Source: a virus
Length of the DNA stretch: 20,499 nucleotides
Virus genome (UHGV): UHGV-0263856
Strand: one strand, 5' to 3'
Part shown: one piece after another, positions 5,640-14,041 of the stretch
Layout of the letters: each line of letters opens with the position of its first letter
Numbering within the stretch: position 1 is the stretch's first letter
Notes under the pieces: generated by a model
What the model was told of the DNA's origin: nothing
The model's input: the letters and a program-made list of their open reading frames with translations, nothing else
Databases searched by the model: none
Made by a program: the position numbers and the translations under genes

Positions 5640-5897
5640 TCACGCAGTAAACTCCTTCACCAGCGTTTCAAACTGGCTTACCTGTCCTTCCAGTTCCGCC
5701 ACGCAATCCACCAGCTCATCCACCGCCTTTTGTGTGCGGTGTTTTGCCTGCAGCAGATCACGAAGCGCCGGAGTAAGCTGCTTGCGGAGCGTATCTTTTT
5801 TCACGCTCGTTTTTTTCATCTGTTCAGCACAACGAAGCATCTCCTGCGCCTGCCGACGAAGTTGTTCCGGTGAAACAGTGATTGTTCTGTTGTTCAA
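5640..5897 (-). CDS. Hypothetical nin-region protein
   Basis: 85-aa ORF whose start overlaps the DnaB-like stop by 4 nt. Charged, helical-looking sequence. Confidence 0.5.
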   Translation of the reverse strand: MNNRTITVSPEQLRRQAQEMLRCAEQMKKTSVKKDTLRKQLTPALRDLLQAKHRTQKAVDELVDCVAELEGQVSQFETLVKEFTA

Positions 5898-7294
5898 AAT
5901 AAACGCTCCGTTTTACTGCCCGACATGCGGTTATTGCTGTATCTGCGCGGATTGCCCGGCGTCATGGGTGTGGAAAGAACCCGGGCACTCTCCTGGTCCA
6001 CAGGCAGAAAATGTCCGTTATGAAAACGCCGGTAAATGGTCCCGAGCGTGCCATTACGCTGTTTCGTGATGTTGATTTCTGCTATGCCTCTGGCCTGAGT
6101 TTCCGGGTTGTATACCTCATCCCTGTAAAGCATCAGAATGATGTCGGCATCCGCCTCGATTTCCCCGGAGTTTTTCAGGTCCGAGTTCATTGGGCGTTTA
6201 TTGGGTCTGGATTCCACGCCGCGGGAGAGCTGGCTCAGAGCAATCAGCGGAAAACCGCCGGATTTTGCCAGGCTTTTAAGTCCCTTTGAGATTTCCCCCA
6301 CCGCAAGGTCGTGACGCCCCGTGCTGCGGGTTTTAATCAGGCCGAGGTAATCGACCACCACCAGCGCCGTTTCCGGGTGTTTCATCCGGTGGTGCTTCGT
6401 GGTTGCACATATCTCATCAATGGTCAGGTTTGCCTGGTCCACCATCCAGATATTACGCCCCGTCATTCGTCCCACGCCCTGCGAGAAACGCGCCCAGTCT
6501 TCATCTTCAAAACGGGCAACAGACTTAAGACGGGATACCGGCATTCCACCGGCAGCAGACACCATACGTTCACCAATCTGGATGTTCGCCATCTCCATGG
6601 TGAACAGAAGCACGCCATGCCCCTGCTCAGTCACCTTGTCGATGATGTCCAGCGCAAGTTCGGTTTTCCCCATCGAAGGACGGGCGGCAATGAATACCAG
6701 GTCTCCGGGCTCCATACCGCCCGTTTTTGCGTCCAGTTCATCAATACCGGTCATCAGCGCCCTGGATTTCTCCAGTCCCTGATTGCGGCATTCAACACGG
6801 TCGACCACTTCCGGAAGGACATCATCAATGTGAACCGGCTGAATGACGCCCTTTCCGGTCGACAGTGAGGCCATCATGTTCTGCACATCCTTCAGGGCAT
6901 CCTCGGCTGCTTCACAGGTATACGCATCACGTAAATTCTGTAATGCTTCAGTCAGTGTTTTTTCTGCATCGCGCAGTGCGGCATTGCGCCGCAACGCTGC
7001 GACATAGTGCTCCAGTGAAGACTTCACCCAGGTTTTGCGTCCGGTGTCGGTAATCACCGGGGCAAGTTCCGGCATCTCATTGCACAGCAGTACGGGGTCA
7101 ATGACGCCGGATATGCGAGCCTGTCTGCAAATCCCCGCGTAAATATCCCGGTACTGACGCACAAAAAATACATCCGCCGGAAGTGTGGCCAGAATATCCA
7201 TCACTTCCGGATCGGCCCCACGCAGAAAAAACGCACCGATGACAGCGCCTTCCAGGTCATCGTTACGCCATGCCGGGGTGTTCTGGCTGGTCAT
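5894..7294 (-). CDS. Replicative DNA helicase, DnaB family
   Basis: 466 aa. Walker A ARPSMGKT, then EDEDWARF, IDYLGL, ALSQLSRGVESRPNKRPMNSDL, ADIILMLYRDEVY: collinear with E. coli DnaB motifs. Confidence 0.9.
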   Translation of the reverse strand: MTSQNTPAWRNDDLEGAVIGAFFLRGADPEVMDILATLPADVFFVRQYRDIYAGICRQARISGVIDPVLLCNEMPELAPVITDTGRKTWVKSSLEHYVAALRRNAALRDAEKTLTEALQNLRDAYTCEAAEDALKDVQNMMASLSTGKGVIQPVHIDDVLPEVVDRVECRNQGLEKSRALMTGIDELDAKTGGMEPGDLVFIAARPSMGKTELALDIIDKVTEQGHGVLLFTMEMANIQIGERMVSAAGGMPVSRLKSVARFEDEDWARFSQGVGRMTGRNIWMVDQANLTIDEICATTKHHRMKHPETALVVVDYLGLIKTRSTGRHDLAVGEISKGLKSLAKSGGFPLIALSQLSRGVESRPNKRPMNSDLKNSGEIEADADIILMLYRDEVYNPETQARGIAEINITKQRNGTLGTIYRRFHNGHFLPVDQESARVLSTPMTPGNPRRYSNNRMSGSKTERLF

Positions 7295-8199
7295 GCGGCA
7301 ACACCTCCGATACGAGAACGGTAGCTGGGCCAGTTAAACGACAACCAGTTGCGCCCGCCATCGGTGATCCTGTCGGCAATCCGGGGACTGATGAACGCCC
7401 ACAATTCTTCCGGTGAAAGATTGCTGATCAAGATAGTTGGCAAAATACCCTCATACCGGGCATTGATAATTTCCTGCAAAATGGCCATTTCAGCCGCACT
7501 GCCAAACTGAACGCCGACTTCGTCGACAATCAGCAAATCCAGTGACGCATAATGCTCAATGACGTCATCCGCTGTTTTTTCACTGTCATTCCGCCAGCAG
7601 TTTTTCACAGCCCGGGTAAGGCGCATCACGTCGGTGATCTCCACACTGGCCAGATAGTTACGGATGATGTGTTTTGCCATTGATACCGCCAGATGATTTT
7701 TCCCGGTACCGCAACTGCCGGTCATAACAAGACTGGTACCGTTCTCCAGCATATCTGGCCAGTTCTCCGCATAGCGGCGACAGGCCGCAAGATTTCTGGC
7801 TGCGTCAGGATTAACCTCCAGATAATTATCAAACTCGCAGTCCCGAAAACGCAGAGCAATTCCGGCGTTATCAGTCAGTTCTTCCGCCTTGAGGGACGAC
7901 AGTTCCATGGTCAAATCACTGGCCTCAGCGATCAAGCAGTCAGGGCAGCATGAAATTTTTTCTCTGTCCTCGCCATTACGATCGATCCACACCAGTATAT
8001 GCGTACGATATTTACCGTGTTTTTCGCAATATCCGCGACCTTCACGCATCAGGCAGGAACGATAAGGCCATGGCTTTTCGCCCTTCTGAGCAAATGCAAT
8101 CTCTGCCCGTAACTCATCCATTTCTGCCCGTAACTCATCCATTCGCGCCTGTAGTCTTGTTTGTTTCTCACGTTGGTCAATCGTCATCATCGCTGTCAC
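7291..8199 (-). CDS. DnaC/IstB-like AAA+ helicase loader with Cys-rich N-terminus
   Basis: 302 aa. GSCGTGKNHLAVSMA (Walker A), LLIVDEVGVQ (Walker B), C-terminal WLSFNWPSYRS like DnaC. N-terminal Cys cluster CEKH...CCPDC. Contains the 21-bp tandem duplication at 8103-8144. Confidence 0.8.
   Translation of the reverse strand: MTAMMTIDQREKQTRLQARMDELRAEMDELRAEIAFAQKGEKPWPYRSCLMREGRGYCEKHGKYRTHILVWIDRNGEDREKISCCPDCLIAEASDLTMELSSLKAEELTDNAGIALRFRDCEFDNYLEVNPDAARNLAACRRYAENWPDMLENGTSLVMTGSCGTGKNHLAVSMAKHIIRNYLASVEITDVMRLTRAVKNCWRNDSEKTADDVIEHYASLDLLIVDEVGVQFGSAAEMAILQEIINARYEGILPTILISNLSPEELWAFISPRIADRITDGGRNWLSFNWPSYRSRIGGVAA
8103..8144. repeat. 21-bp tandem duplication inside the DnaC-like gene
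   Basis: ctgcccgtaactcatccattt / ctgcccgtaactcatccattc, 20 of 21 identical and in frame, encoding MDELRAE twice. Confidence 0.9.
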
Positions 8200-8200
8200 C

Positions 8201-9187
8201 TCAGAATGTCAATTTGTTACTGGATTTACCGAATTTGTCAGACATGGCTCCCAGGCCAGCCAGGACATCGACCTGTCGCTGTCGCCCACCTCCGTGAGCG
8301 GCTGGCTGTTGCCAGTAATCTTCGAAGTGACGATCGGGTCCAAAGAACGTCGCAGCCTGCTTCACGAACTGTGTGCCGGTATTTCCTGTAGCACGTACCC
8401 AGGCGGCATACCGCTTCACGCCATCAAGCATGGTCTCCGGTTTTATTCCCTCCCTGATACGGGCTTTCCAGGCTTTGAAGGCCGCTGACTTGGAATTGCC
8501 ACCAGCACGTTTGGGATATTCCTGCCAGGCCTGTTCAAATTCCGGTGAATATTCCTGTCGGGCAGAACGCGCAGACGCGTCAGCGGATGCATCAATAGTG
8601 TTTTTAGTCTCCGTTGTAATCTCTGTAGTAATCTCTGTATTTGTATCAACATTCGGCGTATCCCCTGTTCCGTTATGACGTCGGGGGGTGTTCCGTTTTA
8701 ACGTAATAGCTGTATCGCTGATTGCATTATTGCTGTTACTTTCTGGCGAAACAGAAGAAGGTGTGGTGATGACCGCAATTGCCTGTGGGTTGATCCCGAC
8801 AAACAAAATATTGCTGCATTTCACCCCATCGAGCATTTCCACCGTGCGTAAATCCAGAGTAATAAACCCTGCATCGCGCAGACGCTTCAGCGCATCTGCG
8901 GTTTCCCTTTTCCCGAAACCAAACTGCTCAGCAAACGCCTGGTAGCTTCTTTGCAGTTTGTCGCCCTGAAAACGCTTGCGATATCCCAGCAACGCTCCGG
9001 TGTGCTCATCCCTGACCTCTGTCGGGCGGTACCAGTAAACGATCTCTGAAAGCAGAGCGATAGCCGTCGCATCCGGACGCCCACTGGGTAGTCGAATATA
9101 TTTCCACCAGTTCGCAGGTGTAACATTGCCGGAAATATTAATTTGACCAATAGCCATAACTTCCGGTGTGGGGGCGTAACGGCTCAT
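8201..9187 (-). CDS. Replication initiator (lambda O-like role)
   Basis: 328 aa. Directly upstream of the DnaC/DnaB-like genes, with a mid-gene low-complexity linker (TEITTEITTE, DASADASARSA) that carries iteron-like repeats, as in lambda where ori lies inside O. Confidence 0.55.
   Translation of the reverse strand: MSRYAPTPEVMAIGQINISGNVTPANWWKYIRLPSGRPDATAIALLSEIVYWYRPTEVRDEHTGALLGYRKRFQGDKLQRSYQAFAEQFGFGKRETADALKRLRDAGFITLDLRTVEMLDGVKCSNILFVGINPQAIAVITTPSSVSPESNSNNAISDTAITLKRNTPRRHNGTGDTPNVDTNTEITTEITTETKNTIDASADASARSARQEYSPEFEQAWQEYPKRAGGNSKSAAFKAWKARIREGIKPETMLDGVKRYAAWVRATGNTGTQFVKQAATFFGPDRHFEDYWQQPAAHGGGRQRQVDVLAGLGAMSDKFGKSSNKLTF
8605..8652. repeat. Iteron-like 12-bp direct repeats (candidate ori) inside the initiator gene
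   Basis: tagtctccgttg / taatctctgtag / taatctctgtat / ttgtatcaacat: four adjacent 12-mers, the central two near-perfect. Confidence 0.45.
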
Positions 9188-9483
9188 ACAACCTCCTTCC
9201 GCGGCATGAGAATTGTGTAGCCACGCGCAGGTTGTAGTCTGGCTTTTGCATCAATAGTAAGCGTTGCAATTTTTCGGATATGAAGATAACCAGCTCTTTC
9301 CAGTGCCAGGGTTTCCCTGAATATCGCTTGCTTAGAACAACAGCAGAAATCAGCAAGCACCTGATGATCAATAACTCTCTCGCCTTCACCGTCTGAAGAA
9401 CCCGACATCAAAACACGCAACATAATTAGGCGCTGAATCGGGTTATCGAAAGCACATCCGCACACAAACTGAAAACAGTTCAC
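9184..9483 (-). CDS. Hypothetical HTH protein (cII-position)
   Basis: 99 aa. HQVLADFCCCSKQAIFRETLALERAGYL resembles an HTH. Start and stop each overlap neighbours by 4 nt. Confidence 0.4.
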   Translation of the reverse strand: MNCFQFVCGCAFDNPIQRLIMLRVLMSGSSDGEGERVIDHQVLADFCCCSKQAIFRETLALERAGYLHIRKIATLTIDAKARLQPARGYTILMPRKEVV

Positions 9484-9704
9484 GCCACACCTCCCAGACG
9501 CTTAAACATTTTTCCAGACAGAAATACCGCCAGAGGGTAACTGATGGTGTAGCTACGCCCCTGTAGTTCGCACACGACTTTCTGGCTTTCAGCGTTGACT
9601 AGGCAAACCCGCAGAACGTGACCGTTGCTGGTGGCGAACCACTGCCCCACACGGGGGCAACGGTTGTATCGGTGATACAGGGAATTAACGATGTGGCGGA
9701 TCAT
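9480..9704 (-). CDS. Hypothetical protein
   Basis: 74-aa ORF, translationally coupled (4-nt overlaps) on both sides. Confidence 0.4.
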   Translation of the reverse strand: MIRHIVNSLYHRYNRCPRVGQWFATSNGHVLRVCLVNAESQKVVCELQGRSYTISYPLAVFLSGKMFKRLGGVA

Positions 9705-9895
9705 GGACGCACCTCCACCGTAGTTACGTATTTAACCGGGCTACCTTTCATTGAGATGGTTTCACACATCTCTGCCGCTTTCAGTTCCGCTGTTTTTCTG
9801 GATTTATAGCGACGGTGCCAGACAGATACATCCGTGCGAACTGATACATCGTTTCTGTATTCCGTAGTGGAGATGATGATTTCGTAACTAATCAT
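9701..9895 (-). CDS. Hypothetical protein
   Basis: 64-aa ORF, translationally coupled on both sides. Confidence 0.4.
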   Translation of the reverse strand: MISYEIIISTTEYRNDVSVRTDVSVWHRRYKSRKTAELKAAEMCETISMKGSPVKYVTTVEVRP

Positions 9896-10443
9896 GGGCG
9901 AACCTCCTTGTCAGAACCATTCAGCCTGGAATCAACAAGTGCAGCGCCAAAAACAGCATCACCAACACGGTCGTACAGTTTGCTAGCCAGCGGAGATTCA
10001 ACGGCCTTAAGCATTGGATAAAGCTGGCTTGTCCAGATTTGATGGATTTCACGCAAATGCAGGTATACGCCTCTGGCGTTTCGTGCGACAGCTGACATAT
10101 CAGACGCATCGGCACCTGATAAACTCTTCTCCATCAGGTTAAAGGCGTTGATGTATGCCTCTTTGAACCGGGCTGCACGTTTGCCAGTAAAGCCCATAGC
10201 AAGGAACGCGAAGCCATCACGGGTGATTTGATAGCAAGGTAGTTTGCGGCCTGTGCAATCGGTGTAATCACTCACCGAAAAATTGCGGGCAGTGAATGAT
10301 GCGGAGCATTCAAGCGTGCGGATCTTTTTCAGTACATCGTCATGACGCTTGGAGAAGAAGTTGGCAACAGCCAGGGATGAAGTAACAGCCTGACCATCAA
10401 CGATGGCAATTTCAGGTTGAGTGAGGGTTGGGATCGTAGCCAT
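9892..10443 (-). CDS. Rha-family phage regulatory protein
   Basis: FSKRHDDVLKKI and DGFAFLAMGFTGKRAARFKEAYINAFN match the Rha domain as recalled. GGAGG 8 nt before the ATG at 10443. The ORF track extends in frame to 10743 but that N-terminal 100 aa is low-complexity with no SD. Confidence 0.6.
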   Translation of the reverse strand: MATIPTLTQPEIAIVDGQAVTSSLAVANFFSKRHDDVLKKIRTLECSASFTARNFSVSDYTDCTGRKLPCYQITRDGFAFLAMGFTGKRAARFKEAYINAFNLMEKSLSGADASDMSAVARNARGVYLHLREIHQIWTSQLYPMLKAVESPLASKLYDRVGDAVFGAALVDSRLNGSDKEVRP

Positions 10444-10828
10444 GATGGCAGCCTCCGTTGACTGTGGAAAACTTCCACCACCGGAGCTGCGAAACTCACT
10501 GGTGGCAGACTGAACAGGGTTCGCAGTACCGGCGTCAACGGAAACCGGCGAGCCTTTCGGCTCCCCTGCCCAGCCCACCATAATTCTGGCGTGCGTGAGC
10601 GCGGACGATAAAAAAGACGCTGGCGCGTCATATATCGCCGTTGACAATTCCGGGCTGCGACCCCCGGCACCCGCTTTATAAGGTGCAGAGACAGTGTAAC
10701 GTCCCGAAATTGCAGAATCAATATTTGGTCTTGAAATGATCATATAGCTGCTGATATCTTTAGAACTGTTCTTGGATGTTTCGGAGCCGTTTTATGCGAA
10801 ACAGCTCCCCGTTATTGATGTTGAGTGA

Positions 10829-10852
10829 GCCGGGTTACTCCCGGCTTTTTTT
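10829..10852 (+). terminator. Intrinsic terminator oriented opposite to the flanking genes
   Basis: + strand: GCCGGG / TTACT / CCCGGC followed by T7. It abuts the stop codon of the convergent - strand gene 10852-11559. Confidence 0.6.
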
Positions 10853-11559
10853 CACCGCTGCCAACCAATAACCTGAAATAACCCCATTTTCGGGTGATAC
10901 CAGCGAGTCCCTCGCGGTTCTGCTTCCTCCATAACCCGATAAAAAGCAGCCATAAACGGTTCCACAGCAACAATTGCGCGACGTGACAACAATCCGTCCG
11001 GCGTCATGAACTCATGGGTGTCTGTAGGAATCTGATAGGCGTTCACCAGATTGCGGCATTTATCATCTGACAAACCGGTTTTTGCTTTCAGTTGGCGATA
11101 TCCGGCATAGCCCTCACGAATAGTGCCCTTTTTAATTTGCTCGACTGTTTCAGCAACGTGGCTGACTTTTTCTTCCACCTGAGTGATCCGTTTCTGTTGG
11201 CGAACGGCTTCAAGAGCCATCGCGGCAACCATTTCGATTTCGCTCATTGGCTTACGGATCTGTTCTTCCAGTTCGCGCCAGCGATCTACCAGGCGAGCAG
11301 TGAATTCAGGACAGAGCTGTGCGACGACAATGATGCTGTCGCGCTTACCTTGTTCTCCTTCAAACAGGTAATGCTCATATTGAACTTTAAAACCTAAGTT
11401 ATTGATTCTTTCGGAAACCTCAATTTGAGGAGACCGGACAACGCCACCTTTGGCTAATGTTTCAATAGTGCGTTTCACATTGTCATGACGTTTACCCACC
11501 AGCTCTGCGATCTCAACGCTGGTCATGGATGCTTTGCCGTTAAAAATTGCGGTGTTCAT
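10852..11559 (-). CDS. Rha/antirepressor-like phage regulatory protein
   Basis: 235 aa. N-terminal SVEIAELVGKRHDNVKRTIETL (Rha-type motif). AGGAGA 6 nt before the ATG at 11559. Confidence 0.55.
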   Translation of the reverse strand: MNTAIFNGKASMTSVEIAELVGKRHDNVKRTIETLAKGGVVRSPQIEVSERINNLGFKVQYEHYLFEGEQGKRDSIIVVAQLCPEFTARLVDRWRELEEQIRKPMSEIEMVAAMALEAVRQQKRITQVEEKVSHVAETVEQIKKGTIREGYAGYRQLKAKTGLSDDKCRNLVNAYQIPTDTHEFMTPDGLLSRRAIVAVEPFMAAFYRVMEEAEPRGTRWYHPKMGLFQVIGWQR

Positions 11560-11783: not shown

Positions 11784-11894
11784 TCTTTAGTCTCACACCA
11801 GATACTTTGTTATCCAACGATGTTAACCACGGGAATCCAAAGTATCAAGAAATTCTGTTACTTTAGTATCAACAGCCATGAGAGGAGAAGAAAA
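11784..11894. promoter_or_regulatory. Divergent immunity control region (OR with PR/PRM candidates)
   Basis: Motif copies at 11803-11811 (reverse orientation), 11840-11848 and 11864-11872. Candidate - strand PR: -35 TTGATA (rc of 11843-11848), 17-nt spacer, -10 TAACAT (rc of 11820-11825). Candidate PRM -10 TAGTAT at 11864-11869. Confidence 0.5.
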
Positions 11895-12551
11895 ATGAAG
11901 TCTTTAGGTGAACGTCTCATCAACGCACGGCAAAAAGCTGGGTTAACACAAGATGCGTTGGCTAAAAAAGCTGGGATCACCAGAGTTGCAATCAGTAAAG
12001 CCGAGCAAGGCCTTACAAAAAGTTTCAACGGTGACACCCTTTTTAAAGTTGCAGCTGCACTGCGGTGTTCACCGCAGTGGCTTCAGAACGGAGATGAAAA
12101 AGATAAGCATTGGGAAAATAATGTTAAGAGCTGCCCACAGAGAGACACAGCACACTCTTACCCTGTAATTAACTGGGTTCAGGCAGGATTATTCGCAACT
12201 TCTGGTGATGACTACAACATGTATGATCAGGATAATTGGAGGCATTCTGTAAAATACGCTGGTGAGAGGGGGTTCTGGCTGGAAGTGCACGGAGACTCAA
12301 TGACTTCGCCCGTAGGAATAACATTTCCTGAAGGAATGTCGATCCTTGTCAACCCAGATAAAGAAGTTTTTTCAGGGTGTTACGTCATCGCCAGAAAAAA
12401 ATCGACCAATGAAGCAACATTCAAAAAATATATTTCTGACATGGGAAAGGCGTTTCTAAAGCCCCTTAATCCACAATATCCAATCATAGAAATGGACAAT
12501 GATTGCGAAATAGTAGGTGTTGTGGTTGATGCCAGGTGGGATATTTTCTGA
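11895..12551 (+). CDS. cI: CI-like prophage repressor (HTH plus S24 LexA-type peptidase domain)
   Basis: AGGAG 8 nt before the ATG at 11895. N-terminal LTQDALAKKAGITRVAISKAEQG (HTH), C-terminal WLEVHGDSMTSP...GCYVIARKK (Ser/Lys autocleavage dyad). Confidence 0.9.
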   Translation: MKSLGERLINARQKAGLTQDALAKKAGITRVAISKAEQGLTKSFNGDTLFKVAAALRCSPQWLQNGDEKDKHWENNVKSCPQRDTAHSYPVINWVQAGLFATSGDDYNMYDQDNWRHSVKYAGERGFWLEVHGDSMTSPVGITFPEGMSILVNPDKEVFSGCYVIARKKSTNEATFKKYISDMGKAFLKPLNPQYPIIEMDNDCEIVGVVVDARWDIF

Positions 12552-13846: not shown

Positions 13847-14041
13847 ATGCATCAGAAAACAGCAGAACACGAACAAACCAGAATATTGCTGACCATCAAA
13901 AACGGGAAAGTAATATTCATTCGCCATGTTCATGACGATGAACTTGTAGGAACTCTTTCAACATTCCTGTTTATTGCAGAAAGGGCAGGATATGACGTTA
14001 TTGCACCAGCAGATGAAGATGAAGATGAAGATGAGGAATAA
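13847..14041 (+). CDS. Small protein with poly-acidic C-terminal tail
   Basis: 64 aa ending APADEDEDEDEE. GGGAG SD. Confidence 0.5.
   Translation: MHQKTAEHEQTRILLTIKNGKVIFIRHVHDDELVGTLSTFLFIAERAGYDVIAPADEDEDEDEE

What the first reader, a model, noticed from the sequence alone, without database searches (positions are those of the whole stretch)
8605..8652. Iteron-like 12-bp repeats in the linker of the initiator gene (candidate ori)
Four adjacent 12-mers (two near-perfect) lie mid-gene, encoding TEITTEITTE. This mirrors lambda, where the ori iterons are inside O.
Basis: partly seen in the sequence, partly recalled or inferred. Interest (0 to 1): 0.4.

Follow-up and report, generated by a model that had tools for sequence, protein, structure and literature searches.

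The report
Conserved 12-mer tract in phage origin
The 12-base repeats are real and belong to a probable replication origin hidden inside a prophage's initiator gene, but they are not the initiator's specific binding sites: those lie just upstream, and the repeats are a separate DNA element kept almost letter for letter in phages of very different bacteria.

Summary
The repeat exists: 2.7 tandem copies of a 12-mer at 8603-8638 on the minus strand. It lies mid-gene in a 328-aa replication initiator (8201-9187) of an E. coli lambdoid prophage and encodes TEITTEITTET.

It is selected as DNA, not as peptide. In homologues found through the N-domain alone (identity down to ~40%, including Bacillus, Geobacillus, Acinetobacter and Yersinia phages) the unit is always ACAGAGANTACT. 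Glu is GAG in 79 of 79 codons. Only the second base of the ANT codon varies freely, while synonymous sites in the flanking domain are saturated.

Directly upstream sit ~21-bp repeats in different reading frames, phased 22-23 bp and at fixed distances (24, 46, 68-69, 90-91, 113 nt) from the tract. They change with the initiator subfamily. These are the better iteron candidates; in the window they are 8687-8707 and 8664-8684.

The tract is the least stable duplex in the replication module and encodes a disordered linker.

Best reading: a lambda-like origin of iterons plus a sequence-specific unwinding or loading tract. No description of the tract was found in the papers searched. All function is inferred.

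The parts
8201..9187 (-). Replication initiator gene (328 aa). N-terminal winged-helix domain about aa 1-143 (8759-9187), disordered linker aa 144-210 (8558-8758), helical C-domain aa 211-328.
   Evidence: ORF and translation. phrog_270 'replication initiation protein', E 4e-75, with no Pfam or NCBIfam hit. AF2 model: pLDDT 79-91 for residues 30-141, about 30 for 144-210, helical for 211-297. Only weak winged-helix fold matches.
8603..8644 (-). The 12-mer tract, which is the finding. Prefix ACAAAT (8639-8644); unit 1 ACAGAGATTACT (8627-8638); unit 2 ACAGAGATTACA (8615-8626); degenerate unit 3 ACGGAGACTAAA (8603-8614). Proposed unwinding or loading element of the origin.
   Evidence: TRF. Consensus ACAGAGANTACT from 91 units of 32 distinct genes. 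Codon identity 0.92-1.0 in 6 of the 7 scored repeat columns against 0.16-0.88 in the N-domain. Copy number 1-4 among near-identical prophages.
8594..8653 (.). Least stable 60-bp duplex of the replication module 5894-9700, and second least stable in the whole window. It overlaps the 12-mer tract.
   Evidence: Nearest-neighbour free-energy scan, 99.9th percentile; the 40-bp window 8614-8653 is at the 99.8th percentile. GC 0.37-0.38. The single strand is predicted to be unstructured there.
8687..8707 (-). Iteron candidate ATTACGTTAAAACGGAACACC, starting 69 nt upstream of the first 12-mer.
   Evidence: Top hit of the whole window (27.0 bits) for a weight matrix built only from relatives. The best minus-strand hit outside the initiator gene scores 8.8; the only other high score, 21.8 on the + strand at 8690-8710, is this same site read on the other strand, so the site appears partly palindromic. 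Phasing. Direct repeat D8.
8664..8684 (-). Iteron candidate CCGACGTCATAACGGAACAGG, starting 46 nt upstream of the first 12-mer and 23 bp from the previous one. It is read in a different frame.
   Evidence: 18.8 bits. 14 of 16 identity to the neighbour at spacing 23. Phasing.
8642..8662 (-). Proximal iteron slot, 24 nt from the tract. It is degenerate in this lineage (GATACGCCGAATGTTGATACA, about 12 of 18 matches to the consensus core by eye).
   Evidence: 24 of 31 relatives have a strong iteron at this slot; the window and its relative L122 do not reach 10 bits. Sequence.
8732..8752 (-). Weak distal iteron candidate GTTTCGCCAGAAAGTAACAGC, 114 nt upstream of the tract.
   Evidence: 10.5 bits, third best minus-strand hit in the window. 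In phase with the 113-nt slot seen in relatives.
7291..8199 (-). DnaC/IstB-like helicase loader, immediately downstream of the initiator.
   Evidence: PF01695 E 4e-14, phrog_50 E 1e-87.
5894..7294 (-). DnaB-family replicative helicase.
   Evidence: PF03796 E 8e-74. RefSeq calls it 'replicative DNA helicase' in strain SF-088.

Best explanation
The linker-coding middle of the initiator gene is the prophage's replication origin, built like lambda's. An array of ~21-bp iterons phased at 22-23 bp is bound by the initiator's winged-helix N-domain. In the window there are two strong copies (8687-8707 and 8664-8684), plus degenerate copies at 8642-8662 and 8732-8752. Directly downstream in the direction of transcription lies the (ACAGAGANTACT)n tract, the easiest-melting DNA of the module. 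There the duplex is opened and the phage's DnaC-like loader and DnaB-like helicase are brought in through the initiator's C-domain.

The tract is therefore the counterpart of lambda's AT-rich region and of the 13-mer repeats of oriC and RK2 oriV, not of the iterons. Its near-invariant sequence implies that something reads it sequence-specifically. The most likely reader is a conserved surface of this winged-helix initiator superfamily, possibly on single-stranded DNA.

Shown here: the repeat, its DNA-level conservation, the phased class-specific repeats, the low duplex stability and the disordered linker. Inferred: that this is the origin, who binds what, and where unwinding occurs.
For: (1) Selection acts on DNA. 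In 32 distinct genes retrieved through N-domain peptides only, Glu in the repeat is GAG in 79 of 79 codons, against 42% elsewhere in the same genes. Thr is ACA or ACT in 188 of 202 codons and ACC once, against 28% ACC elsewhere. The only free base is codon position 2 of ANT, giving I, T, N or S. Pairwise codon identity is 0.92-1.0 in 6 of the 7 scored repeat columns (0.64 in the seventh) against 0.16-0.88 in the conserved N-domain columns scored.
(2) The same DNA follows the N-domain in Geobacillus, Bacillus, Exiguobacterium, Acinetobacter and (degenerate) Eggerthella phages, whatever the C-domain or helicase loader.
(3) A non-coding copy exists: three iterons plus three perfect 12-mers, with the TE.T frame closed, in Bacillus plasmid pBSG3.
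(4) Class-specific repeats lie directly upstream, in different reading frames. In 82 distinct loci found by the tract alone, 93% have a direct repeat of at least 13 of 16 within 140 nt upstream, against 1.6% of controls. Spacing is 23 bp in 53 loci and 45-48 bp in 17 of the 76 loci with such a repeat.
(5) Iterons sit at fixed distances of 24, 46, 68-69, 90-91 and 113 nt from the tract. A matrix trained without the window puts its top hits at 8687-8707 and 8664-8684.
(6) The tract is the least stable duplex of the module. It is the least stable 40-mer within +-700 nt in 67% of the 82 loci.
(7) The region encodes a disordered linker between two folded domains.
(8) Lambda has the same order, iterons then an A-rich tract inside O (PMC7466680). 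Two iterons plus the AT-rich tract suffice for unwinding in lambda (PMC7466680). DUE repeats are read sequence-specifically as single strands by DnaA and TrfA (PMC4980987).
(9) The tract type follows the N-domain superfamily, not the C-domain. HTH_36-class initiators with the same C-domain carry a different 12-mer, GAACCAGTCAWA. All classes that carry ACAGAGANTACT are remote homologues (hhalign probability 69-99.5%).
Against: Nothing was tested experimentally: no replication, binding or unwinding data exist for this element, and no paper describing it was found. The tract is only about 63% A+T, much less than lambda's tract. The window has only two strong iterons, and the slot next to the tract is degenerate. 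The copy number varies from 1 to 4 among near-identical prophages, so its length is not critical. The N-domain shows no sequence homology to lambda O (hhalign probability 0.2). An RNA-level role cannot be strictly excluded, although no Rfam family matches.
Confidence: 0.6

Rival explanations
1. The 12-mers are themselves double-strand binding sites (iterons) of the initiator. They could be a second, generic set of sites onto which the initiator oligomer spreads from the specific iterons.
For: They are direct repeats under DNA-level selection. They lie in phase with the upstream array, with the first unit 23-24 nt after the last iteron slot, and two units (24 bp) roughly equal one iteron period. 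The tract type correlates with the N-domain superfamily.
Against: The sequence is unchanged across initiator classes whose predicted recognition helices differ, and across phyla, whereas the upstream repeats change with the class. A contiguous 12-bp unit is unlike the 17-22-bp spaced iterons of lambda or iteron plasmids. Copy number drifts from 1 to 4.
Confidence: 0.15
2. The tract is a landing or start site for a universal host replication component, for example primase. It carries 5'-CTA on the coding strand and 5'-CTG on the other strand in every unit. On this view the initiator does not read it.
For: The same sequence works in phages of Gram-positive and Gram-negative hosts with different loaders and C-domains. 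The trinucleotides can be read from the consensus. That they are primase start sites is my own recollection, not tested.
Against: Such trinucleotides are common by chance. Initiators of another superfamily in the same hosts, with the same C-domain, use a different 12-mer, which argues against a host reader.
Confidence: 0.1
3. It is a conserved joint for module exchange. Identical DNA at the boundary between the N- and C-domain modules lets phages recombine initiator halves, and that is why it persists.
For: Homology between the window and Stx-phage initiators with another N-domain stops exactly at 8638, the 5' edge of the tract. Homology with phiP27-type genes stops at 8597-8599, its 3' edge. 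The tract is found with many N- and C-domain combinations.
Against: Selection for future recombination is too weak to hold synonymous sites fixed across phyla while flanking sites are saturated. This idea does not explain the fixed phasing with iterons or the low duplex stability. Mosaic joints are expected at an origin anyway, as in lambdoid O genes.
Confidence: 0.07
4. It is merely a slippage-prone low-complexity linker: a Thr/Glu-rich peptide spacer with no function at the DNA level.
For: The encoded region is predicted to be disordered. Copy number is polymorphic, as in a VNTR. Other initiators have other short repeats at this spot.
Against: Synonymous positions are fixed while the amino acid at the ANT codon varies among I, T, N and S. 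This is the opposite of selection on the peptide. An out-of-frame, non-coding copy exists in pBSG3.
Confidence: 0.05

Closest known systems
Bacteriophage lambda ori inside gene O (four iterons followed by an AT-rich tract)
   Same: The origin lies in the middle of the initiator gene, in the segment between the DNA-binding N-domain and the C-domain that recruits the helicase. It has phased direct repeats (lambda spacing 20-24 bp; here 22-23), followed in the direction of transcription by an easily melted, A-rich coding strand. It also acts as a module boundary (PMC7466680).
   Different: There is no detectable homology of the N-domain to lambda O. The partner proteins are a DnaC-like loader plus the phage's own DnaB-like helicase instead of P. 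The tract is a sequence-conserved 12-mer repeat of about 63% A+T, not a generic AT-rich run.
Bacillus phage SPP1 oriL inside gene 38 (gp38 origin-binding protein, gp39 loader, gp40 helicase)
   Same: The origin consists of direct repeats plus an AT-rich unwinding element within the gene of the origin-binding protein. Loader and DnaB-type helicase genes follow (PMC6316719). Gene order is the same here, and the Geobacillus relative has a G39P-like loader.
   Different: Homology to gp38 and presence of the 12-mer in SPP1 were not tested.
13-mer repeats of the unwinding elements of E. coli oriC and plasmid RK2 oriV
   Same: These are short tandem repeats of defined sequence inside the unwinding element, next to the initiator's duplex binding sites. 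DnaA or TrfA reads them strand-specifically as single-stranded DNA, and point mutations abolish opening (PMC4980987). This is the best functional parallel for an unwinding tract that is sequence-constrained.
   Different: The unit is 12 nt, not 13, has a different sequence, lies in coding DNA and is less AT-rich. No binding data exist.
Iterons of theta plasmids (RepA, pi, TrfA type)
   Same: Direct repeats within an origin.
   Different: Plasmid iterons are 17-22 bp, spaced, and specific to their own Rep protein. The 12-mers are contiguous and shared among initiator classes. The upstream 21-mers fit this definition better.

Membership tests
Lambda-type origin embedded in the initiator gene | Array of at least two phased direct repeats inside the initiator ORF | tested here: met
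   8687-8707 and 8664-8684, 23 bp apart, are the top window hits of a matrix built from relatives. The same phasing is seen in relatives.
Lambda-type origin embedded in the initiator gene | Easily melted region directly flanking the repeats | tested here: met
   8594-8653 is the least stable 60-mer of the module, at the 99.9th percentile of the window.
Lambda-type origin embedded in the initiator gene | Position in the linker between the DNA-binding N-domain and the C-domain | tested here: met
   AF2 model: residues 144-210 have pLDDT about 30, between two confident domains.
Lambda-type origin embedded in the initiator gene | Initiator homologous to lambda O | tested here: not met
   hhalign of the N-domain profile against lambda O gives probability 0.2. 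There are only weak PHROG 'O-like' hits, E 3e-6. So it works like lambda's origin but is not a member of the O family.
Lambda-type origin embedded in the initiator gene | Initiator-dependent autonomous replication of the fragment | not testable with these tools
   Needs a plasmid replication assay.
Iterons (specific duplex binding sites of the initiator), applied to the 12-mers | Sequence co-varies with the initiator's DNA-binding specificity | tested here: not met
   The unit ACAGAGANTACT is the same in all classes and phyla. Only the type of tract changes, and only between N-domain superfamilies.
Iterons (specific duplex binding sites of the initiator), applied to the 12-mers | Several spaced copies of about 17-22 bp | tested here: not met
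   2.7 contiguous 12-bp copies, varying from 1 to 4 in near-identical prophages.
Iterons (specific duplex binding sites of the initiator), applied to the 12-mers | Bound by the initiator | not testable with these tools
   Needs EMSA or footprinting.
Unwinding element with sequence-specific short repeats (oriC / RK2 13-mer type) | Short tandem repeats of conserved sequence at a fixed distance from the initiator sites | tested here: met
   Consensus from 91 units. Synonymous-site invariance. Iterons at 24, 46, 68-69 and 90-91 nt.
Unwinding element with sequence-specific short repeats (oriC / RK2 13-mer type) | Lowest helical stability of the origin region | tested here: met
   for the window. 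In 67% of 82 loci the tract is the least stable 40-mer within +-700 nt.
Unwinding element with sequence-specific short repeats (oriC / RK2 13-mer type) | Initiator-induced strand opening, and single-strand binding | not testable with these tools
   Needs KMnO4/P1 probing and single-strand EMSA.
Neutral VNTR / low-complexity linker | No constraint on nucleotide sequence beyond the peptide | tested here: not met
   Codon identity is 0.92-1.0 in 6 of the 7 scored repeat columns against a median of about 0.4 in the flanking domain. The amino acid at the ANT codon varies.

The most novel reading that the evidence does not exclude
(ACAGAGANTACT)n is an undescribed, cross-phylum origin module. It is a sequence-specific unwinding or loading tract shared by one large superfamily of winged-helix phage and plasmid initiators in Proteobacteria, Firmicutes and beyond, always coupled at fixed phase to class-specific 23-bp iterons. 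It would be read by a conserved surface of the initiator, for example the invariant aromatic 'YW' helix, perhaps on single-stranded DNA, in the way DnaA reads 13-mers and DnaA-trios. A parallel tract, GAACCAGTCAWA, would serve HTH_36-type initiators. If so, origins of many hundreds of phages could be located from sequence alone, and the Thr/Glu-rich 'TEITTE' linker motif in their proteins would be a by-product of a DNA signal.
Probability: 0.35. Interest if true: 0.75.

Novelty: new variant of a known kind. Interest (0 to 1): 0.6.

Why it matters
An origin inside a phage initiator gene is textbook knowledge from lambda and SPP1, so on that level the finding is ordinary. What stands out is the tract itself: a 12-base unit kept nearly letter-perfect at synonymous sites. 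It occurs in phages of E. coli, Yersinia, Acinetobacter, Bacillus, Geobacillus and Staphylococcus and in several plasmids, always in phase with iterons that differ from class to class.

If it is the unwinding or loading site, four things follow:
- It gives a sequence rule for locating origins in a very large group of temperate phages and phage-plasmids.
- It shows that a recurrent 'protein motif' (TEITTE) is really a DNA signal read through a disordered linker.
- It offers a simple system for asking how a non-AAA+ winged-helix initiator opens DNA.
- It explains why initiator genes recombine at this point.

Tried and rejected
- Homology of the N-domain to lambda O: none (hhalign probability 0.2).
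- Pfam and NCBIfam for the initiator: no hits.
- PDB sequence profile and Foldseek: only weak generic winged-helix matches, best E 0.006-0.008, so no precise structural family can be named.
- Rfam search of 8200-9200: nothing with E up to 1.
- Promoter and terminator scan: nothing in the tract.
- Single-strand folding of 8590-8715: no better than shuffles, z -0.12, so a hairpin signal is rejected.
- Known protein sites (DnaA box, IHF, DnaA-trio) compared by eye with the consensus: no convincing match. This rests on my own knowledge of those consensus sequences, not on a tool result.
- Literature searches for the DNA or peptide strings, and for phage origins of this kind: nothing relevant. This is absence in the searchable library only.
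- Single-linkage clustering of N-domains at E<1e-5 merged almost everything into one cluster and was uninformative. It was replaced by strict classes plus hhalign.
- The resemblance between lambda's tract (ACACTATTACAAAAGA) and this one (ATTACTACAGAGA; AAAAACACTATT) is too weak to claim homology.
- The 16-mer pair at 8666-8704 cannot be judged from within the window, because the search pattern was derived from those two copies. The independent matrix was used instead.

Full report
CONTEXT. The window is part of an E. coli lambdoid prophage integrated next to yecE. It is 100% identical over the queried gene to strain SF-088, and related copies occur in 408 of 5426 complete E. coli genomes. The finding lies in a minus-strand gene, 8201-9187, encoding a 328-aa protein. 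Its best family match is PHROG 270, 'replication initiation protein' (E 4e-75). There is no Pfam or NCBIfam match. Directly downstream are a DnaC/IstB-like loader (7291-8199) and a DnaB-family helicase (5894-7294).

OBSERVATION. Tandem Repeats Finder reports a 12-bp array at 8608-8639 with 2.7 copies and 90% matches. Read on the coding strand, the units are:
- ACAGAGATTACT (8627-8638)
- ACAGAGATTACA (8615-8626)
- a degenerate ACGGAGACTAAA (8603-8614)

They are preceded by ACAAAT and encode TEITTEITTET. Within the window alone the repeat is weak evidence.

THE REPEAT IS A DNA SIGNAL, NOT A PEPTIDE MOTIF. I collected homologues through peptides of the N-domain only, so the retrieval is blind to the repeat's DNA. 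This gave 80 close and 33 divergent IMG/VR loci, plus GenBank phages found by tblastn whose matches covered residues 1-142 only.
- Among near-identical prophages the unit is a copy-number polymorphism, with 1, 2, 3 or 4 full copies.
- In 32 distinct genes, with N-domain identity down to about 40%, every one has the repeat at the same place and with the same codons.
- Glu is GAG in 79 of 79 codons, against 42% GAG elsewhere in the same genes.
- Thr is ACA or ACT in 188 of 202 codons and ACC once, against 28% ACC elsewhere.
- The consensus of 91 units is A-C-A-G-A-G-A-N-T-A-C-T. Positions 1-7, 9 and 10 are at least 95% conserved. Positions 11 and 12 vary mainly in the last unit of each array. 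Position 8 is free (T 55, C 22, A 10, G 4). It is the second base of a codon, so the residue changes among Ile, Thr, Asn and Ser.
- In a codon alignment, conserved amino-acid columns of the N-domain have pairwise codon identity of 0.16-0.88 (median about 0.4, i.e. saturated). Six of the seven scored repeat columns have 0.92-1.0; the seventh has 0.64.

Synonymous sites fixed while a non-synonymous site drifts is the signature of selection on the nucleic acid.

The same DNA follows the N-domain in Geobacillus phage PT9.1, Bacillus phages Athena and PM1, Exiguobacterium phage EauM-23, and Acinetobacter phages qsb1 and IME-AB2. It is present in degenerate form in Eggerthella phage LE2-3. These phages have unrelated C-domains and different helicase loaders. 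In Bacillus plasmid pBSG3 three iterons and three perfect 12-mers survive with the TE.T frame closed. That copy is an initiator-gene fragment, judged by similarity to phage PM1.

THE REAL ITERON CANDIDATES ARE NEXT DOOR. Immediately 5' of the tract (in gene orientation) each gene carries 2-5 repeats of about 21 bp that fall in different reading frames and change with the initiator subfamily. Examples:
- four copies of CCTACGTTGAAACGGAACAGG in L119
- four copies of GGGGTGTGACGTTGAAACGTCAG in the Geobacillus phage
- CCCTCCCCATTTCAAAAGGGGGA in L147-L149, with a lambda-like TCCCC...GGGGA symmetry
- CCTATTACCYTSCAGGGCA in L143
- GGGAAAC-type and TCAGAATCTGA-type repeats in the Stx-phage and phiP27 classes

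A weight matrix built from relatives without the window, scanned over all 20.5 kb on both strands, gave these minus-strand hits:
- 8687-8707: 27.0 bits
- 8664-8684: 18.8 bits
- 8732-8752: 10.5 bits
- best minus-strand hit outside the initiator gene: 8.8 bits

The only other high score, 21.8 bits on the plus strand at 8690-8710, is the first site read on the other strand, so that site appears partly palindromic.

Relative to the first ACAGAG, iterons in the family sit at 24, 46, 68-69, 90-91 and 113 nt. The window has them at 46, 69 and (weakly) 114, and the 24-nt slot is degenerate.

The tract alone, used as a DNA pattern, found at least 120 IMG/VR loci. All lie in the TE.T frame of initiator-like ORFs, mostly of 250-350 aa. 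In the 82 distinct loci analysable:
- 93% have a direct repeat of at least 13 of 16 within the 140 nt upstream, against 1.6% of control segments.
- Of the 76 loci with such a repeat, spacing is 23 bp in 53 and 45-48 bp in 17 (Mann-Whitney p 3e-49).

ANATOMY AND PHYSICAL PROPERTIES.
- The tract region 8594-8653 is the least stable 60-bp duplex of the replication module. It is second in the whole window, after the immunity-region intergenic DNA.
- Across the 82 loci the tract is the least stable 40-mer within +-700 nt in 67%.
- As single-stranded DNA it is predicted to be unstructured.
- The AF2 model gives a confident winged-helix N-domain (residues 30-141), a disordered segment at 144-210 that is exactly the part encoded by iterons plus tract, and a helical C-domain. 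Fold matches are weak and generic winged-helix proteins.
- Lambda has the same order: four iterons (39034-39118), then an A-rich tract on the coding strand of O (PMC7466680). In lambda, two iterons plus the AT-rich tract suffice for unwinding (PMC7466680), so two strong iterons here are not disqualifying.

WHO READS THE TRACT? The classes of N-domain that carry ACAGAGANTACT are all remote homologues. hhalign probabilities are 69-99.5% over 52-77 columns, including a conserved aromatic 'YW' helix. One class is an exception only because the extracted segment there was the HNH part of a larger protein. Initiators with an HTH_36-type N-domain but the same C-domain as the window's protein have their own iterons followed by a different 12-mer tract, GAACCAGTCAWA. 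The phiP27 class has a 24-mer pair. So the tract type follows the N-domain superfamily, not the C-domain, the loader or the host.

This favours a reader within the initiator, through a conserved surface distinct from the variable recognition helix. The known parallel is the 13-mers of oriC and RK2 oriV, which DnaA and TrfA bind sequence-specifically as single strands (PMC4980987). This step is inference.

MOSAIC BOUNDARY. Homology between the window and Stx-phage initiators with another N-domain ends at 8638, the 5' edge of the tract. Homology with phiP27-type genes ends at 8597-8599, its 3' edge. The tract is thus also the joint at which initiator modules are exchanged. I regard that as a consequence of being a shared origin element rather than the reason for its conservation.

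VERDICT. There is very probably a lambda-like origin here, but the 12-mers are its conserved unwinding or loading tract rather than the specificity iterons, which are at 8664-8707. The origin-in-initiator design is known from lambda and from SPP1 oriL in gene 38 (PMC6316719). I found no description of the cross-phylum ACAGAGANTACT tract phased to 23-bp iterons in four literature searches, which is a limited test. I rate it a new variant of a known kind. All functional statements remain to be tested.

Noticed in passing
window 8102-8143 (minus strand, 5' part of the DnaC-like gene 7291-8199): A perfect 21-bp tandem duplication, AATGGATGAGTTACGGGCAGA x2, which is in frame (MDELRAE x2). Among related loci it is polymorphic: 2 copies in 29, 1 copy in 14, none in 41 (those have another allele or lie outside the fetched range).
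   Followed up: partly
L279 (Bacillus amyloliquefaciens plasmid pBSG3, NC_014104) 730-845: An 8.4-kb mobilizable plasmid carries a non-coding origin cassette: three iterons with core CCTACAGGGAAA at 23 bp, plus three perfect ACAGAGATTACT units. It is a fragment of a phage PM1-like initiator gene lacking the N-domain. It might let the plasmid be replicated by an infecting phage, or interfere with that phage.
   Followed up: partly
L004, L005, L010, L013, L014, L012 (initiators with an HTH_36-type N-domain and the same C-domain as the window): These show the same architecture with other parts: their own iterons (for example GTTTCACCACATGGTGCAGCA x4 in L005) followed by a second conserved 12-mer tract, GAACCAGTCAWA, encoding the common 'EPVIEPV' motif. 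This suggests that other recurrent linker motifs of Rep proteins are also DNA signals.
   Followed up: partly
window 8638 and 8597-8599: Mosaic joints fall exactly at the two edges of the 12-mer tract. Similarity to Stx-phage 'O' genes (other N-domain) ends at 8638, and similarity to phiP27-type genes ends at 8597-8599.
   Followed up: partly
window 9184-9483 (minus strand, 99 aa, overlapping the initiator start): A small ORF matches only the N-terminal 93 of 223 positions of PHROG 4617, 'replication initiation protein' (E 2e-29). It may be a remnant or a separate small partner of another initiator type, sitting directly upstream of the initiator.
   Followed up: no
window 8642-8662: The iteron slot closest to the tract is strong in 24 of 31 relatives but degenerate in this prophage and in its Salmonella-like relative L122. 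In lambda the proximal iterons are the essential ones, so this lineage may initiate less efficiently or use a variant site.
   Followed up: no
window 14011-14034: A perfect hexamer repeat, AGATGA x4 (TRF score 48), in the early-left region. It was not examined.
   Followed up: no
window 9892-10743 and 10852-11559: Two consecutive Rha-family regulator genes, one fused to an Ash domain, lie between the cI-like repressor (11820-12551) and the replication genes, in place of a lambda-like cro/cII arrangement.
   Followed up: no
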